48,683 nt of DNA from Chitinophagales bacterium (GTDB lineage: Bacteria; Bacteroidota; Bacteroidia; Chitinophagales; UBA2359), in the NCBI GenBank assembly GCA_020631035.1, contig JAHDIA010000001.1:1-48683 (forward strand), in the 5' to 3' direction. Below, in pieces: positions 8,991 to 12,934 of the stretch. The translations under genes were made by a program, and so were the position numbers. A model generated the notes under the pieces. That model saw only the letters and a list, made by a program, of their open reading frames with translations, did no database searches and was not told the DNA's origin. Position 1 is the first letter of the stretch. Every line of letters starts with the position of its first letter.

Positions 8991-9545
8991 ATGATTGATT
9001 CTTTCCACATAAAAGAAGGGCAATTTGAATCAAAAATTGACTTACTCCAGTCAATTATTGATGCCCTAAAAGAAGGCAAAAAAATTGTAGTGGTTCAGTC
9101 TTGGAGCGATGATGACTTTGAGCCATTTTGTGAGATATACTTTGAAAAGTATGCTCCTGAAATAGAGATTTTAATTGTGCGAGACAGTGGCTATCCAGAT
9201 GACTGGCTTGTCACTCGCAAAGTTCAATCTCCAAATTTAGAAGAAGAAGCTCGGAAAAAATCACTGTTGCCTCACATTATCAAAGATGACCTATTCACCG
9301 AGAGGGTAATCGAAACAATAATTTGTACCGAAATTTCTGGCGGAACAGACTACATTGAAAATATGCCTCGAAAGCTCACCTTGCAACGGAGCAGAGAAAA
9401 CCAGTCTGATATTGAGCAGGATTATTTTAGCAGAGACGCCATATTAAAATTAGTAAGTCATCTAATGGACAAAGGAATATGGGAAATCTATAGAAAAAAT
9501 CACAATTGGACAAATAAGAAAATTTTAGATTCATTCCTGAAATAA
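8991..9545 (+). CDS. hypothetical protein
   Basis: 184-aa ATG ORF with no recognised motifs. Confidence 0.55.
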   Translation: MIDSFHIKEGQFESKIDLLQSIIDALKEGKKIVVVQSWSDDDFEPFCEIYFEKYAPEIEILIVRDSGYPDDWLVTRKVQSPNLEEEARKKSLLPHIIKDDLFTERVIETIICTEISGGTDYIENMPRKLTLQRSRENQSDIEQDYFSRDAILKLVSHLMDKGIWEIYRKNHNWTNKKILDSFLK

Positions 9546-9559
9546 AAAGAAACAAACAC

Positions 9560-9613
9560 TTGATTATCAACGAATTATAATTTATCTTAGAGTTGTATTG
9601 TTAACCACAACAA
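9560..9613 (+). promoter_or_regulatory. promoter/leader cassette copy 1 (TTG-N20-TAtcTTAG-N10-TTAACCACAACAA)
   Basis: TTG 9560-9562. TAtcTTAG 9583-9590. 13-mer 9601-9613. ATG at 9624. Near-identical to the cassette at 47692-47745. Confidence 0.6.
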
Positions 9614-9623
9614 ACTTAAAAAG

Positions 9624-9992
9624 ATGATTACAATTCAAGCAAAATTTACGGGAGAAAGACAAAACCTTGAGGTGTTCAAATGCTGCGGCATAAGATACAA
9701 TTCACGCCAAAGATTTGAAGGATCAAGCACACTGATAATTGATTGGATATGCGAGCAGGAAACGGTCAACGAAGCGATTGAGGCTTGCATGGACGATTGC
9801 GATTTGAACGAAGCTGAGAAATGGGGGATTGAACTTGAGAGCTTCGGAGTATTGCCACCAAGCTTCATAGATATATTAGAATCGCAACACAAAAGCCTTG
9901 TCGAGCAAATTGAGCATGGAAGCTCGGATGAAGAGTTAATTAAGCAGCTCAAAGATGAGCTGTACCAAAAAACTGGCTGGGAGTATTTATAA
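9624..9992 (+). CDS. hypothetical protein
   Basis: 122-aa ATG ORF directly downstream of the conserved cassette. Confidence 0.55.
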   Translation: MITIQAKFTGERQNLEVFKCCGIRYNSRQRFEGSSTLIIDWICEQETVNEAIEACMDDCDLNEAEKWGIELESFGVLPPSFIDILESQHKSLVEQIEHGSSDEELIKQLKDELYQKTGWEYL

Positions 9993-10049
9993 TTTTTTTC
10001 ATTGCCAAGCGGGCTGAGGTCCGTTTGGTTTTTCAAAGACAAAATTCAA

Positions 10050-10838
10050 ATGACACACGGAAGCTTCTTTTCAGGGATACTAGGATTCGACATCGCAGCA
10101 ACTCGTGCTGGATGGCAAAATGTATTCACCTGCGAAAAAGACGACTTCCTCAGATCATTTATTAATTTTTCTTCACCCAATACTTACAATCATGGTGACA
10201 TCAAGACATTTCCTTCAGAAAAATTCGCAGGTGCAATTGACGTTATTTCAGGAGGAGACCCTTGCCAGCCACACAGTGTCAGTGGGAAGCGAAGAGGCAA
10301 GGGAGATGACCGTTACCTCTGGCCTGAAATGTTCAAAGCAATTGAGGTCATTAGACCCAGTTGGATTGTTAACGAAAATGTTATTGGAACAATCTCAAAT
10401 TTGGTACTCGACCAAAAGATTGCTGATTTGGAAAGTATCGGCTACTCCTGCCAGGCGTTTGTTATACCAGCTCTCGCCATTGATGCCGACCATCAGCGCA
10501 AGCGAGTATTCCTTATTGCCAACGCCGAAGGCAAACGATTACAAGCAGTACGTTTGCACAATGAAAACAGCAAAGAGCAGCGCAGAGCGCAAGAGCAGGA
10601 ATGGTCAATCAATAATAGAGTCGTCAATGGACTACACGATCTACGCCCTTGTCATACAGCGGAATTTGAGCAAAGGATGGATCAACCCGCTATTACAACT
10701 AGCAAGGATGGGTTACCCTATTCAGTTGATAATAGATTTCTCAAAGCAGCAGGAAACCTCGTAGCTCCTGGGTTGGCTTTTATATTTTTTTCAATAATTA
10801 ATGAAGTAGAGAAAACATGGCAAAAGTATTATCAATAA
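10050..10838 (+). CDS. DNA (cytosine-5) methyltransferase (short form); frame integrity questionable
   Basis: Frame-0 motifs: I FSGILGFD, IV GGDPCQPHS, VI ENV, VIII QRKRVFLIA, X GNLVAPGLAF. The track start at 10002 is TTG, so the ATG at 10050 was chosen. See the finding on the second open frame. Confidence 0.75.
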   Translation: MTHGSFFSGILGFDIAATRAGWQNVFTCEKDDFLRSFINFSSPNTYNHGDIKTFPSEKFAGAIDVISGGDPCQPHSVSGKRRGKGDDRYLWPEMFKAIEVIRPSWIVNENVIGTISNLVLDQKIADLESIGYSCQAFVIPALAIDADHQRKRVFLIANAEGKRLQAVRLHNENSKEQRRAQEQEWSINNRVVNGLHDLRPCHTAEFEQRMDQPAITTSKDGLPYSVDNRFLKAAGNLVAPGLAFIFFSIINEVEKTWQKYYQ

Positions 10839-10847
10839 GAAATCCTT

Positions 10848-10873
10848 GGGCAGTGTTTCGCCGCTGCCCTTTT
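10848..10873 (+). terminator. hairpin + T-run
   Basis: Stem gggcag (10848-10853) / ctgccc (10864-10869), followed by tttt. Confidence 0.5.
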
Positions 10874-10911
10874 AAAAATGAAACTTATTTTTTTAACTAA
10901 AACACATAATA

Positions 10912-11304
10912 ATGGACGATTTCGAAGAAAGACTAAAAAATTTCAAATTTGACATTGGGGATATTACCGAACATCGATTATCGCAGAAGTATGCTTCAGG
11001 AAATCAAAAAACTGTAGAGTTCCTCATCACTGGAAAAGCCAAGCTGATCACTCAGGCAGGTGAACAAAATATCTACAAAGTGAGAACAATTAATAATAAT
11101 GAGTATTGCTGCACTTTTGTAGATGAGATAGAAATGGAGCTTGAGCCAAATTACAAACAGCAAAAGGAGGCTAATCAAAAACCAAACCGCACTGCCAACA
11201 TCCGAGAAGAAATTGAAATACAAGGACCAGCAGGAACAGGAAAAATAGCAGTAGAATTGGAAGTTGAGGATCAAGATTATACCCCAAGAGACAAAGATTG
11301 CTGA
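10912..11304 (+). CDS. hypothetical protein
   Basis: 130-aa ATG ORF. Confidence 0.5.
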   Translation: MDDFEERLKNFKFDIGDITEHRLSQKYASGNQKTVEFLITGKAKLITQAGEQNIYKVRTINNNEYCCTFVDEIEMELEPNYKQQKEANQKPNRTANIREEIEIQGPAGTGKIAVELEVEDQDYTPRDKDC

Positions 11305-11692: not shown

Positions 11693-12934
11693 ATGACAAA
11701 GGAAACGACTGAATCAATTACATTTCGATTAGAACTCGTTGAAATCGAAAAAATCATCCCAAACCCAAAGAATAGTCGCTACATCACCGAAAAGAAAAAG
11801 GAGCGCCTATCCTACTCAATGGGAAAATACAAGCTCCACGACCGCCCAATTGTGAACGAAAAAGACAAGGATGGTAATTACCTACTCCTTGCAGGACACA
11901 AAAGGCTCGAAATTGAAAAGGAAAATGGCCATTCCCAAATCTACGTTCAAATTCCAGAGCGACCACTTACTCAGGAGGAATTTGACGAGCTTTCCCTACT
12001 TCATAACAATGCATCAGGTGAATACGACTTCGAGGAGCTTCAGACTCATTTCGACATTGATTACTTGATTGAGGTAGGAGGATTTGAGATGTACCAGTTT
12101 AGTTTCCAAATTGAAGATGATGAAGCCGAGGAAGATGATTACCAAGTTCCTGAGAAAATTGAAACGGATATCAAAAAAGGAGATCTCTTTGTATTTCAAA
12201 AAGGAGATCTCACTCACAAACTACTATGCGGTGACTCCCAAGATGAAAAAGAAGTCTCCAGGCTACTGGATGGCTACACTCCCGACCTAATGGTTACCGA
12301 CCCACCCTATGGAGTGAGCTATGACCCTGAGTGGCGAAATAAGGCTGGCGTGAACAAATCCAAAGGTAGAATCGGAAAGGTCAAAAACGATGACACGCCA
12401 GAATGGACACGGGCTTATGAGCTTTCTAATGCGCCTGTTGCTTATATCTGGCATGCTGGCAAATACACAAGCACCGTCCTTGAAAACCTCAAGTCTGTAG
12501 GCTACCTCCCCATTTCCCAAATTATCTGGAAAAAAGACCAGTTTGTTCTCTCTCGTGGCGACTACCATTGGCAGCACGAGCCGTGTTGGTATGTTCACAA
12601 GAAAGGCAAAAAACATAACTGGCAAGGAGCCAGAGACCAATCCACCATTTGGGAAATTGCAAAGGTCGACAGAAATGAAGATGCCTATGGGCATGGTACA
12701 CAGAAGCCAATCGAATGCATGGCTCGTCCAATCCGTAACAATTCAAAGAAAGGAGAGATTGTATATGACCCATTTTTGGGTAGTGGCACCACGATGGTCG
12801 CCGCCCATCAGATGCAGCGCAACTGCTATGGAATTGATCTGGACGAAAAATGGTGCCAAGTCATCGTTGACAGAATGATAGCACTTGATCCCGAAATTAA
12901 GGTTTTCAGAAACATGAAACCATACAAAAAATAA
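11693..12934 (+). CDS. ParB-like nuclease domain fused to an N6-adenine/N4-cytosine DNA methyltransferase
   Basis: N-terminal ParB-N-like IEKIIPNPKNSRY...LLAGHKRLE. Motif IV TDPPYGV precedes motif I DPFLGSGTTMVAA (beta-class order). Confidence 0.85.
   Translation: MTKETTESITFRLELVEIEKIIPNPKNSRYITEKKKERLSYSMGKYKLHDRPIVNEKDKDGNYLLLAGHKRLEIEKENGHSQIYVQIPERPLTQEEFDELSLLHNNASGEYDFEELQTHFDIDYLIEVGGFEMYQFSFQIEDDEAEEDDYQVPEKIETDIKKGDLFVFQKGDLTHKLLCGDSQDEKEVSRLLDGYTPDLMVTDPPYGVSYDPEWRNKAGVNKSKGRIGKVKNDDTPEWTRAYELSNAPVAYIWHAGKYTSTVLENLKSVGYLPISQIIWKKDQFVLSRGDYHWQHEPCWYVHKKGKKHNWQGARDQSTIWEIAKVDRNEDAYGHGTQKPIECMARPIRNNSKKGEIVYDPFLGSGTTMVAAHQMQRNCYGIDLDEKWCQVIVDRMIALDPEIKVFRNMKPYKK

What the first reader, a model, noticed from the sequence alone, without database searches (positions are those of the whole stretch)
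10050..10838. C5-methyltransferase locus with two long open frames that both carry methyltransferase-like motifs
Frame 0 (10050..10838) contains motifs I, IV, VI and VIII (FSGILGFD, GGDPCQPHS, ENV, QRKRVFLIA) and motif X (GNLVAP, 10752-10769). The +1 frame is also open for 219 codons (10105..10764), which is very unlikely by chance at this base composition.

In its last 84 codons the +1 frame reads LLPTPKANDYK (10513-10545) and NPLLQLARMGYP (10684-10719). From memory, these resemble the 'LPTPxAxDxK' and 'NPxFxEWLMGFP' blocks found between motifs VIII and X in many phage C5-methyltransferases. The frame-0 translation of the same stretch (EGKRLQAVRLHNENSKEQRRAQEQEW...) looks non-homologous.

The +1 block begins exactly where motif VIII ends (about 10512). 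It ends just before motif X.

Possible explanations:
- two compensating frameshift mutations, making a cryptic pseudogene that still looks intact
- sequencing indels
- an overprinted or dual-coding gene
- programmed shifting
Basis: partly seen in the sequence, partly recalled or inferred. Interest (0 to 1): 0.6.

Follow-up and report, generated by a model that had tools for sequence, protein, structure and literature searches.

The report
Methyltransferase gene with nested second subunit
This phage gene for a DNA cytosine methyltransferase is read in two overlapping frames, one giving the catalytic core and the other, shifted by one base, most likely giving the DNA-recognition part, a layout shown experimentally only for the E. 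coli enzyme M.EcoHK31I.

Summary
Frame 0 (10050-10838) encodes a 262-aa C5 methyltransferase, and the +1 frame is open over 10105-10764 with the quoted peptides at the quoted coordinates.

It is neither an accident nor a pseudogene. The +1 ORF has 2813 database relatives (best E 4e-34). In all 92 related loci I examined, from phages and prophages of several bacterial phyla, a homologue lies in the +1 frame over the methyltransferase gene.

- Shuffling the synonymous codons of frame 0 destroys the +1 frame: about 6 stops appear and profile score falls from 165 to 58 bits.
- Synonymous sites of frame 0 sit at chance identity (0.28-0.29) outside the nested ORF but at 0.46-0.60 inside it. The rise begins at the +1 ATG at 10192.
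- A complex model scores 0.88 against 0.12 for the best control.

Best reading: alpha carries the catalytic core and motif X. Nested beta (about 10192-10764) carries the small domain and motif IX, as in M.EcoHK31I.

This scan has reached the same reading before on other DNA. Translation of beta and enzyme activity are untested here.

The parts
10050..10838 (+). Alpha subunit gene (262 aa). It contains C5-methyltransferase motifs I, IV (catalytic Cys72), VI and VIII, then a poorly conserved linker, then motif X.
   Evidence: PF00145 E 9.8e-33 and phrog_363 E 1e-53. It aligns end to end with P0002 and P0003. The AF2 model has pLDDT 82, with residues 167-222 below 60. Foldseek matches M.HhaI and M.HaeIII at E 6e-14 over only about 165 of about 327 columns.
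10192..10764 (+). Beta subunit gene (190 aa), nested in the +1 frame. It has an N-terminal docking part, an LLPTP/variable (target-recognition) part and a motif IX-like NPLLQLARMGYP.
   Evidence: Exhaustive phmmer found 2813 hits, best E 4e-34. It hits phrog_1008 at E 1.4e-18. The beta profile scores 198 bits on the real sequence against 56 (maximum 83) after synonymous shuffling. Synonymous constraint starts at 10192-10197 and ends near 10730. A +1 ATG aligns with 10192 in 41 of 85 loci.
10105..10191 (+). Upstream part of the open +1 frame, from GTG 10105. It is probably not translated as part of beta.
   Evidence: The ORF list shows it. Synonymous sites here are at chance identity, 0.26-0.31.
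10294..10308 (+). Possible second internal start for beta: ATG 10306 (Met39 of MTVTSG) preceded by GAGG and AGGGAG.
   Evidence: Read directly from the sequence. A +1 ATG aligns here in 54 of 85 loci. By analogy, internal Met codons of M.EcoHK31I beta can serve as starts (PMC2836561). That this site is used is an inference.
10513..10545 (+). LLPTPKANDYK block of beta (+1 frame). It overlaps the start of the alpha linker.
   Evidence: Family consensus is GLLPTPxAxD. Identity at alpha synonymous sites is 0.60 in 10513-10640.
10684..10719 (+). Motif IX-like block NPLLQLARMGYP of beta (+1 frame). It overlaps alpha's ...TTSKDGLP.
   Evidence: Family consensus is LNPxxVEWLMGxPxGWT. The third bases of alpha's Gly and Pro codons are 98-100% identical across loci. 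In the complex model beta 166-175 touches alpha 231-241, which is motif X. hhalign places the block on the RLQGFPENFI of a canonical enzyme, but without significance, E 0.24.
10752..10769 (+). Motif X (GNLVAP) of alpha. Its first part lies over the unconstrained 3' tail of the beta ORF (TAG stop at 10762-10764); the rest lies downstream of it.
   Evidence: G235 and N236 are invariant in the family alignment. Synonymous sites return to chance here.
10848..10873 (+). Hairpin GGGCAG-N10-CTGCCC followed by TTTT, a likely terminator after the gene pair.
   Evidence: Read from the sequence. The consensus scan did not list it because the loop is longer than 8 nt. This is an inference.

Best explanation
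The locus encodes a two-subunit (alpha/beta) DNA cytosine-5 methyltransferase from two fully overlapping same-strand genes.

**Alpha** (10050-10838, frame 0) is the catalytic large domain. It carries motifs I-VIII with Cys72, then a linker whose sequence is weakly constrained, and then the motif X helix.

**Beta** (about 10192-10764, frame +1) starts inside alpha, just upstream of motif IV. It provides an N-terminal part that docks on alpha, the variable LLPTP segment (the likely target-recognition domain) and motif IX.

Both are most likely translated from one mRNA, with beta made by internal initiation at ATG 10192 and possibly also at ATG 10306. They assemble into a complete enzyme.

Shown here:
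- both frames have homologues;
- both frames are under purifying selection;
- the layout is conserved across the family;
- a model docks the two chains confidently.

Inferred:
- beta is translated in this phage;
- the heterodimer is active;
- it methylates phage DNA to protect it from host restriction, since no restriction gene lies nearby.
For: 1. **Homology of both frames.** Frame 0 hits PF00145 at E 9.8e-33. The +1 ORF has 2813 hits at E<=1e-3 and 1037 at E<=1e-10 in an exhaustive search.
2. **The +1 relatives are encoded inside methyltransferase genes.** Three-frame translations of their loci show each one in the +1 frame of a C5-methyltransferase gene.
3. **The layout is universal in the family.**
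   - Of the 92 distinct alpha-family loci examined, 91 have a beta-profile hit (E 6e-16 to 1e-78) in the +1 frame of alpha. In the 92nd, the broken L094, it lies one base ahead of the frame holding PCQ and ENV.
   - The loci include Paenibacillus, Lacticaseibacillus, Mycobacterium, Pseudomonas, Klebsiella and Escherichia phages, and prophages of Bacteroidota and Bacillota.
   - Two distant canonical methyltransferases of the same genome have no such hit.
4. **Synonymous shuffling of alpha in 89 loci.**
   - The +1 frame has 0 stops in real sequences against a mean of 6.0 in shuffles.
   - The beta profile scores 165 bits real against 58 shuffled, and the real score exceeds the maximum shuffle in 89 of 89 loci.
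   - The N part scores 99 against 43 bits and the C part 50 against 3.7.
   - For the window the scores are 198 against 56 bits.
5. **Synonymous-site identity of alpha between genes under 80% identical.** It is 0.28 and 0.29 (chance 0.27-0.28) in the two alpha-only segments, and 0.46, 0.60 and 0.60 in the three overlapped segments. The step up lies at 10192-10197 and the step down at about 10730.
6. **Complex model.**
   - ipSAE is 0.88 (three runs, 0.88-0.89) against 0.12 for the best of three controls.
   - The tool's calibration: this mark was reached by 58 of 80 solved complexes and 2 of 110 mismatched pairs. These counts are only rough, because my own alignments were used.
   - The runs share at least 91% of contacts, and partner pLDDT is at least 74.
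   - Beta motif IX touches alpha motif X.
7. **Alpha alone lacks the small domain.** It folds as the catalytic domain only; residues 167-222 have low confidence, and M.HhaI is matched over about half its length.
[quoted passage not shown] Alpha holds motifs I-VIII and X, beta holds motif IX, and both chains are needed for activity (PMC2836561; PMC3404938).
9. **Independent annotation.** The GenBank record of Paenibacillus phage Rani annotates the nested ORF as 'g50 Internal gene'.
Against: - No expression or methylation data exist for this phage.
- ATG 10192 has no Shine-Dalgarno sequence.
- The window's beta C-terminal part scores lower than the family mean, 19.6 against 50 bits. Its nearest relative with DNA in hand (L006) scores similarly, so this looks like a feature of the subclade.
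- The motif IX assignment rests on a short motif and modelled contacts. hhalign against a canonical enzyme is not significant, E 0.24.
- Beta alone folds poorly (pLDDT 66, pTM 0.33) and has no sequence or fold match in the PDB.
- Part of the conservation of the beta N part is a by-product of alpha: 43 of 99 bits survive shuffling.
- The complex score could partly reflect the model's memory of single-chain C5 methyltransferases.
- Motif I reads GILGF where most family members have GIGGF.
- Direct sequence homology to M.EcoHK31I could not be tested.
Confidence: 0.88

Rival explanations
1. One protein is made by two programmed frameshifts. Ribosomes would shift +1 after motif VIII (about 10512) and back before motif X (about 10730), giving a single-chain enzyme ordered I-VIII / LLPTP / IX / X.
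For: The order of motifs across the frames (0, +1, 0) is what a single chain would need. In L010 and L011 the frame-0 reading stops after motif VIII, and the +1 ORF carries motifs IX and X.
Against: - The +1 frame is open and under its own selection for about 107 codons upstream of the supposed shift site: N part 99 against 43 bits, and synonymous identity 0.46 from 10192 onward. A shift mechanism does not need this.
- A +1 ATG lies at the onset of constraint in about half of the loci.
- Frame 0 stays open through the linker in nearly every locus.
- Beta residues 53-96, encoded upstream of the shift site, form much of the modelled interface.
- In M.EcoHK31I the two chains are separate polypeptides.
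- I did not search for a slippery site.
Confidence: 0.05
2. The gene is a decayed or mis-sequenced single-chain methyltransferase. Two compensating indels would leave an ORF that looks intact but is non-functional.
For: The frame pattern 0/+1/0 is what two compensating indels would give. Truly broken relatives exist: P0097 is shifted into the +1 frame and truncated, L012 is frameshifted right after PCQ, and L065 has a stop in beta.
Against: - The same pattern is present in all 92 independent related loci from several phyla, each with both frames open.
- Frame 0 downstream of the 'first indel' is conserved as protein among the nearest relatives, for example GLHDL.P...EF...MD.P...SKDG.P.
- Selection acts on both frames.
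- As an ancient origin of the family, a double frameshift remains possible but was not tested. I found no same-frame single-chain relative.
Confidence: 0.02
3. The +1 frame is open and conserved only as a side effect of the conserved frame-0 protein and its base composition, and no second product is made.
For: Part of the +1 signal is indeed a by-product: shuffled genes still score 58 bits on average. With GGG and CCC codons, the frame-0 DGLP reads as MGYP in the +1 frame.
Against: - Real scores exceed every shuffle in 89 of 89 loci.
- Shuffles carry about 6 stops.
- Synonymous sites are constrained only inside the nested ORF and are at chance on both sides of it.
- The strongest constraint (0.60, up to 0.9-1.0 at MGYP) lies where the frame-0 protein is least conserved.
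Confidence: 0.03

Closest known systems
M.EcoHK31I (E. coli HK31, YGGCCR), the alpha/beta C5 methyltransferase of Lee, Kam and Shaw 1995, as described in PMC2836561 and PMC3404938
   Same: [quoted passage not shown] - Beta has alternative internal Met starts.
- The beta N-terminal part is needed for association with alpha; here, modelled contacts run over beta residues 53-96.
- Sizes are similar: this family has alpha of 245-440 aa and beta of 170-340 aa.
   Different: - M.EcoHK31I belongs to a restriction-modification system, whereas this is an orphan gene in a temperate phage.
- The papers place the target-recognition domain in alpha. Here the alpha stretch between motifs VIII and X is a poorly conserved, low-confidence linker, and the variable LLPTP segment lies in beta.
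M.AquI (Agmenellum quadruplicatum, CYCGRG), a two-subunit C5 methyltransferase (PMC3404938)
   Same: It is a natural heterodimeric C5 methyltransferase. The relatives L010 and L011 resemble it: frame 0 ends after motif VIII, and the second ORF carries the variable region plus motifs IX and X.
   Different: In M.AquI the small subunit holds motifs IX and X, and the genes are not described as fully nested. In the window, motif X is on alpha and beta lies wholly inside alpha.
Short phage 'orphan' cytosine methyltransferases (phrog_363 and phrog_1008), for example Paenibacillus phage Harrison gp72, Lactobacillus phage Lc-Nu ORF40 and Paenibacillus phage Rani gp50/gp51
   Same: They belong to the same family and have the same nested layout. 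Rani gp51 is annotated as an internal gene.
   Different: - Identity to the window's alpha is only 36-38%.
- Most records annotate only one of the two frames.
- For Pseudomonas phage PMG1 the annotated frame is beta.
Single-chain C5 methyltransferases M.HhaI and M.HaeIII
   Same: Alpha matches their catalytic domain at E 6e-14, with rmsd 1.7-2.1 A over about 165 columns. Beta's ..ARMGYP.. resembles the motif IX RLQGFPENFI of a canonical methyltransferase from the window's own genome, which is where hhalign places it, though without significance.
   Different: They are one polypeptide with no overlapping gene. The small domain and motif IX lie in the same frame as the catalytic core.

Membership tests
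C5 cytosine DNA methyltransferase (PF00145) | Profile match above the curated threshold | tested here: met
   Alpha scores 114.4 bits against a cut-off of 22, E 9.8e-33, over profile positions 2-204 of 324. Beta has no Pfam match.
C5 cytosine DNA methyltransferase (PF00145) | Catalytic motifs: I (FxGxGG), IV (PCQ with Cys), VI (ENV), VIII (QxRxR) and X (GN) | tested here: met
   FSGILGFD, GGDPCQ (C72), ENV (109-111), QRKR (149-152) and GNLVAP (235-240) are present. Motif I has Leu where most members have the second Gly of the GG pair.
C5 cytosine DNA methyltransferase (PF00145) | Small (target-recognition) domain and motif IX in the same chain | tested here: not met
   Alpha lacks them. The Pfam match stops at profile position 204, residues 167-222 have low confidence, and Foldseek covers only the large domain. 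The motif IX-like block is in the +1 ORF.
M.EcoHK31I-type nested alpha/beta methyltransferase | Second ORF lying wholly inside the alpha gene, on the same strand, in another frame | tested here: met
   10192-10764 (+1 frame) lies inside 10050-10838.
M.EcoHK31I-type nested alpha/beta methyltransferase | Beta carries motif IX, and alpha carries motifs I-VIII and X | tested here: inconclusive
   The motif layout fits, and modelled contacts put beta 166-175 on alpha motif X. The motif IX alignment to a canonical enzyme is not significant, E 0.24.
M.EcoHK31I-type nested alpha/beta methyltransferase | The nested frame is under its own purifying selection | tested here: met
   Shown by the synonymous shuffle and the synonymous-site identity profile.
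M.EcoHK31I-type nested alpha/beta methyltransferase | The two polypeptides bind each other and both are required for methylation | not testable with these tools
   Only a model is available: ipSAE 0.88 against 0.12 for the best control. That is support, not proof.
M.EcoHK31I-type nested alpha/beta methyltransferase | Sequence homology to M.EcoHK31I alpha and beta themselves | not tested
The 1995 paper is not held, and no supplement is held.

The most novel reading that the evidence does not exclude
The whole clade, thousands of phage and prophage genes, may descend from one ancient double frameshift in a single-chain enzyme. If so, the roughly 100-residue N-terminal part of beta, encoded over alpha motifs IV-VIII, is a domain born by overprinting that became the docking module. 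The alpha linker would then be the out-of-frame relic of the old recognition domain. That would make this one of the longest (about 570 nt here, up to about 1 kb elsewhere) and most widespread conserved same-strand gene overlaps known in phages and bacteria.
Probability: 0.4. Interest if true: 0.75.

Novelty: new member of a known kind. Interest (0 to 1): 0.55.

Why it matters
**Annotation.** The standard single-gene annotation of this gene is incomplete.
- In the plasmid records where the nested frame matched an annotated gene, only the alpha gene was annotated.
- At least one phage record annotates only the beta frame.
- An alpha chain expressed alone would probably be inactive, so predictions of phage methylation and anti-restriction capacity that count it as a complete enzyme may be wrong.

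**Biology.** The literature available to me treats two-chain C5 methyltransferases as two exceptions, M.AquI and M.EcoHK31I (PMC3404938). Here the nested layout is the rule for a very large family. About 190 codons are under selection in two frames at once, which makes the family a good system for studying how overlapping genes arise and co-evolve.

Tried and rejected
- **tblastn of the last 83 +1 codons against phage genomes** found nothing (E>=2). That fragment is too diverged by itself. The whole ORF and a family member (P0124) did find relatives.
- **Pfam and NCBIfam** have no family for beta.
- **Beta against the PDB:** a profile search gave 0 hits. Foldseek with the isolated beta model gave nothing below E 0.9, and the model is weak (pLDDT 66).
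- **Search for longer, fused (single-chain) forms of beta** returned one weak hit with no Pfam domain. No same-frame form was seen in any locus. The double-frameshift origin therefore stays untested.
- **hhalign of the beta profile against a canonical methyltransferase of the same genome** aligned only the 10-residue motif IX, without significance.
- **The 1995 M.EcoHK31I paper and the supplement of PMC2836561** were not available.
- **Literature searches** for 'Mte8', for 'internal gene' in Paenibacillus phages, and for nested or overlapping methyltransferase genes gave nothing relevant.
- **DNA for the closest relative, P0002,** could not be fetched.
- **The promoter and terminator scan** of 9500-11000 gave no more sites than shuffled sequence.

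Full report
**Observation**

The window is one whole contig of a metagenome-assembled genome. Earlier notes of this scan describe it as a temperate phage.

Frame 0 holds an ORF at 10002/10050..10838. The +1 frame is open over 10105..10764, which is 219 codons.

When the synonymous codons of frame 0 are shuffled, the same +1 stretch acquires 7 or more stops in all 20 trials, with a mean of 9.6. The open frame is therefore not a compositional accident.

**Frame 0 is a real methyltransferase**

- It matches PF00145 at E 9.8e-33 and phrog_363 at E 1e-53.
- It aligns end to end with a family of 245-440-aa proteins. The nearest are P0002 (61% identity) and P0003 (59%). Paenibacillus phage Harrison gp72 and Lactobacillus phage Lc-Nu ORF40 are at 36-38%.
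- The C-terminal stretch GLHDL.P...EF..MD.P...SKDG.P..V(D/N)..FL.AAGNLV.P is conserved in frame 0 among the three closest members.
There the mean pairwise identity is 18%.

**The +1 frame is also real**

An exhaustive phmmer search with the 219-aa +1 ORF found 2813 cluster representatives at E<=1e-3 and 1037 at E<=1e-10. The best were 4e-34 and 9e-32, at 50-52% identity.

The family consensus is QLTLF.ED..AS...PGS.EA..MTVTSG.KC...P.G.L.KMLL.SS.W.ST.C.LTWK..ATP..RLLFQL.PSMP....E.GLLPTP.A.D ... LNP..VEWLMG.P.GWT. PHROGs holds it as phrog_1008, 'DNA methyltransferase' (E 1.4e-18). Pfam and NCBIfam have nothing for it.

I fetched the DNA of four of these hits and translated three frames. Every one is encoded in the +1 frame of a C5-methyltransferase gene.

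**The layout is universal in the family**

I built profiles of both proteins and scanned all fetched loci.

- Of the 92 distinct alpha-family loci, 91 carry a beta-profile hit (E 6e-16 to 1e-78) in the +1 frame of alpha. In the 92nd, the broken L094, the hit lies one base ahead of the frame that holds PCQ and ENV.
- The set includes 80 genome loci (mostly Bacteroidota, but also Bacillus, Virgibacillus, Sutcliffiella, Chlamydiia, Verrucomicrobia and gamma-proteobacteria).
- It also includes phages of Paenibacillus, Lacticaseibacillus, Mycobacterium (SG4 gp64), Pseudomonas (PMG1), Klebsiella (Soft) and Escherichia (ESSI2_ev129).
- Two distant canonical methyltransferases of the same genome have no such hit.

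Variants exist:
- In L010 and L011, frame 0 stops after motif VIII and the +1 ORF carries motif X. This resembles M.AquI.
- L012 is frameshifted just after PCQ.
- L065 has one stop in beta.
- L094 is broken and holds an HNH-type ORF.

**Selection on the nested frame**

Two controls separate real constraint from the by-product of a conserved frame 0.

*Control 1: synonymous-codon shuffling within each of 89 alpha genes.*

| Measure | Real | Shuffled |
|---|---|---|
| Stops in the +1 frame (mean) | 0 | 6.0 |
| Beta profile score (bits) | 165 | 58 |
| Part over motifs IV-VIII (bits) | 99 | 43 |
| LLPTP/motif IX part (bits) | 50 | 3.7 |

- The real beta score exceeds the best shuffle in 89 of 89 loci.
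- About 40% of the N-part signal is a by-product of alpha.
- For the window, the scores are 198 against 56 bits overall, 145 against 49 for the N part, and 19.6 against 0.6 for the C part.

*Control 2: third-base identity at identical four-fold codon boxes of alpha.* This is independent of any beta profile. It uses all pairs of 82 genes under 80% identical.

| Segment | Content | Identity |
|---|---|---|
| 10050-10191 | alpha only | 0.28 (chance 0.27) |
| 10192-10512 | overlap | 0.46 |
| 10513-10640 | overlap | 0.60 |
| 10641-10761 | overlap | 0.60 |
| 10762-10835 | alpha only | 0.29 (chance 0.28) |

The per-codon profile steps up at 10192-10197 and down near 10730. It reaches 0.98-1.00 at the Gly and Pro codons under MGYP.

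**Where beta starts**

The step up coincides with the +1 ATG at 10192. A +1 ATG aligns with that position in 41 of 85 loci, and it is the commonest first ATG. A second ATG, aligned with 10306 (Met39), is present in 54 of 85 loci. In the window it follows GAGG and AGGGAG.

I therefore place beta at 10192-10764 (190 aa), with 10306 as a possible alternative start. This step is an inference.

**Structure**

- Alpha folds with pLDDT 82. Residues 167-222, the frame-0 reading of the beta recognition/motif IX region, have low confidence.
- Foldseek matches M.HhaI and M.HaeIII at E 6e-14, but over only about 165 of about 327 columns. That is the catalytic domain.
- Beta alone folds weakly (pLDDT 66, pTM 0.33) and matches nothing in the PDB by sequence or fold.

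Together the two chains give ipSAE 0.88 (runs 0.88-0.89), against 0.12 for the best of three controls. The three runs show 275-301 contacts and share at least 91% of them. Partner pLDDT is at least 74.

The tool's calibration says this mark was reached by 58 of 80 solved complexes and by 2 of 110 mismatched pairs. Those counts are only rough here, because my own alignments were used. The score may also lean on the model's memory of single-chain enzymes.

In the model:
- beta 166-175 (NPLLQLARMGYP) lies on alpha 231-241 (motif X);
- beta 89-96 pairs with alpha 135-140;
- beta residues 53-96, encoded over alpha motifs VI-VIII, are part of the interface.

This supports binding but does not prove it.

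**Mechanism and known relatives**

The closest known system is M.EcoHK31I.
[quoted passage not shown] - Both chains are required for activity.
- The N-terminal 42 or so residues of beta are needed for association.
- Internal Met codons of beta can serve as starts (PMC2836561).

PMC3404938 lists M.AquI and M.EcoHK31I as the exceptions among otherwise monomeric C5 methyltransferases.

The window fits this layout feature by feature. One difference is that here the variable, recognition-like segment lies in beta, and the corresponding alpha stretch looks like a linker. I could not obtain the M.EcoHK31I sequence, so direct homology is untested.

No restriction gene lies nearby. A second methyltransferase of the N6_N4_Mtase family sits at 11693-12934. 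The likely role is therefore self-protection of phage DNA, which is an inference.

**Rivals**

- *Double programmed frameshift.* It is disfavoured because the +1 frame is open, begins with a conserved ATG and is selected for about 107 codons upstream of any possible shift site. Those residues also form much of the modelled interface.
- *Recent pseudogene or sequencing error.* It is excluded by the recurrence of the layout in all 92 independent loci.
- *Pure by-product.* It is excluded.
- *Ancient double frameshift as the origin of the family.* It remains attractive, but I found no same-frame relative to anchor it.

**Why the +1 frame reads MGYP**

Frame 0 reads DGLP as GAT GGG TTA CCC. Shifted by one base, this reads ATG GGT TAC CC., which is MGYP. 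The GGG and CCC codons are fixed across the family, so both readings are kept.

**Annotation and earlier findings**

- In plasmid records the nested frame lies under genes annotated only as dcm.
- Paenibacillus phage Rani annotates it as 'g50 Internal gene'.
- Pseudomonas phage PMG1 annotates only the beta frame.
- After I had reached this reading, a look-up showed that this scan has reported the same nested two-subunit layout on other genomes. At least eight followed-up findings are shown, and 103 notes hold the search words. My tests here agree with them.

**Verdict**

The 'dual-coding' reading is supported, and the locus is a new member of a known but rarely recognised kind.

Noticed in passing
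window 11693-12934 (+): A second DNA methyltransferase lies two genes downstream. It matches N6_N4_Mtase (PF01555) at E 1.7e-24 over residues 198-392, with an N-terminal extension of about 190 aa. No restriction endonuclease was recognised between 6.7 and 14.7 kb.
   Followed up: partly
window 10068-10091: Motif I reads FSGILGFD. The window and its two nearest relatives (GILGF, GIMGF) have Leu or Met where most family members have the second Gly of GIGGF. The effect on cofactor binding is unknown.
   Followed up: no
window 10848-10873: GGGCAG-N10-CTGCCC followed by TTTT lies just after the alpha stop codon and is a likely terminator. The consensus scan missed it because the loop is 10 nt long.
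   Followed up: no
L010:554-1778 and L011: In this variant of the family, the catalytic frame stops after motif VIII. The +1 ORF (344 aa, P0128) carries four LPTP-type repeats, motif IX and motif X, which resembles the M.AquI split.
   Followed up: partly
L098:784-1545 (Pseudomonas phage PMG1, PMG1_00057): The annotated 'DNA methyltransferase (Mte8-like)' CDS is the beta frame. The catalytic alpha frame over the same DNA is not annotated.
   Followed up: partly
L094:26-1555: This family member is broken. It has a frameshift inside motif I, the catalytic frame stops after motif VIII, and an HNH-type ORF (CLACG...HHKD...CSSCH) lies in the third frame between motif IX and motif X.
   Followed up: no
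L012:2501-3240; P0097: These relatives are naturally frameshifted. In L012 the catalytic frame jumps right after GGDPCQ, so the called protein (P0122) fuses motifs I-IV to beta. P0097 runs from the alpha frame into the beta frame (ECLMGYPKGWT) and then terminates.
   Followed up: partly
L006:909-1688; contig of P0002: In both nearest relatives the alpha/beta gene lies next to a gene with a faint MethyltransfD12 (Dam-like) hit. The P0002 contig also holds a HEPN_LA2681 gene on the other strand.
   Followed up: no
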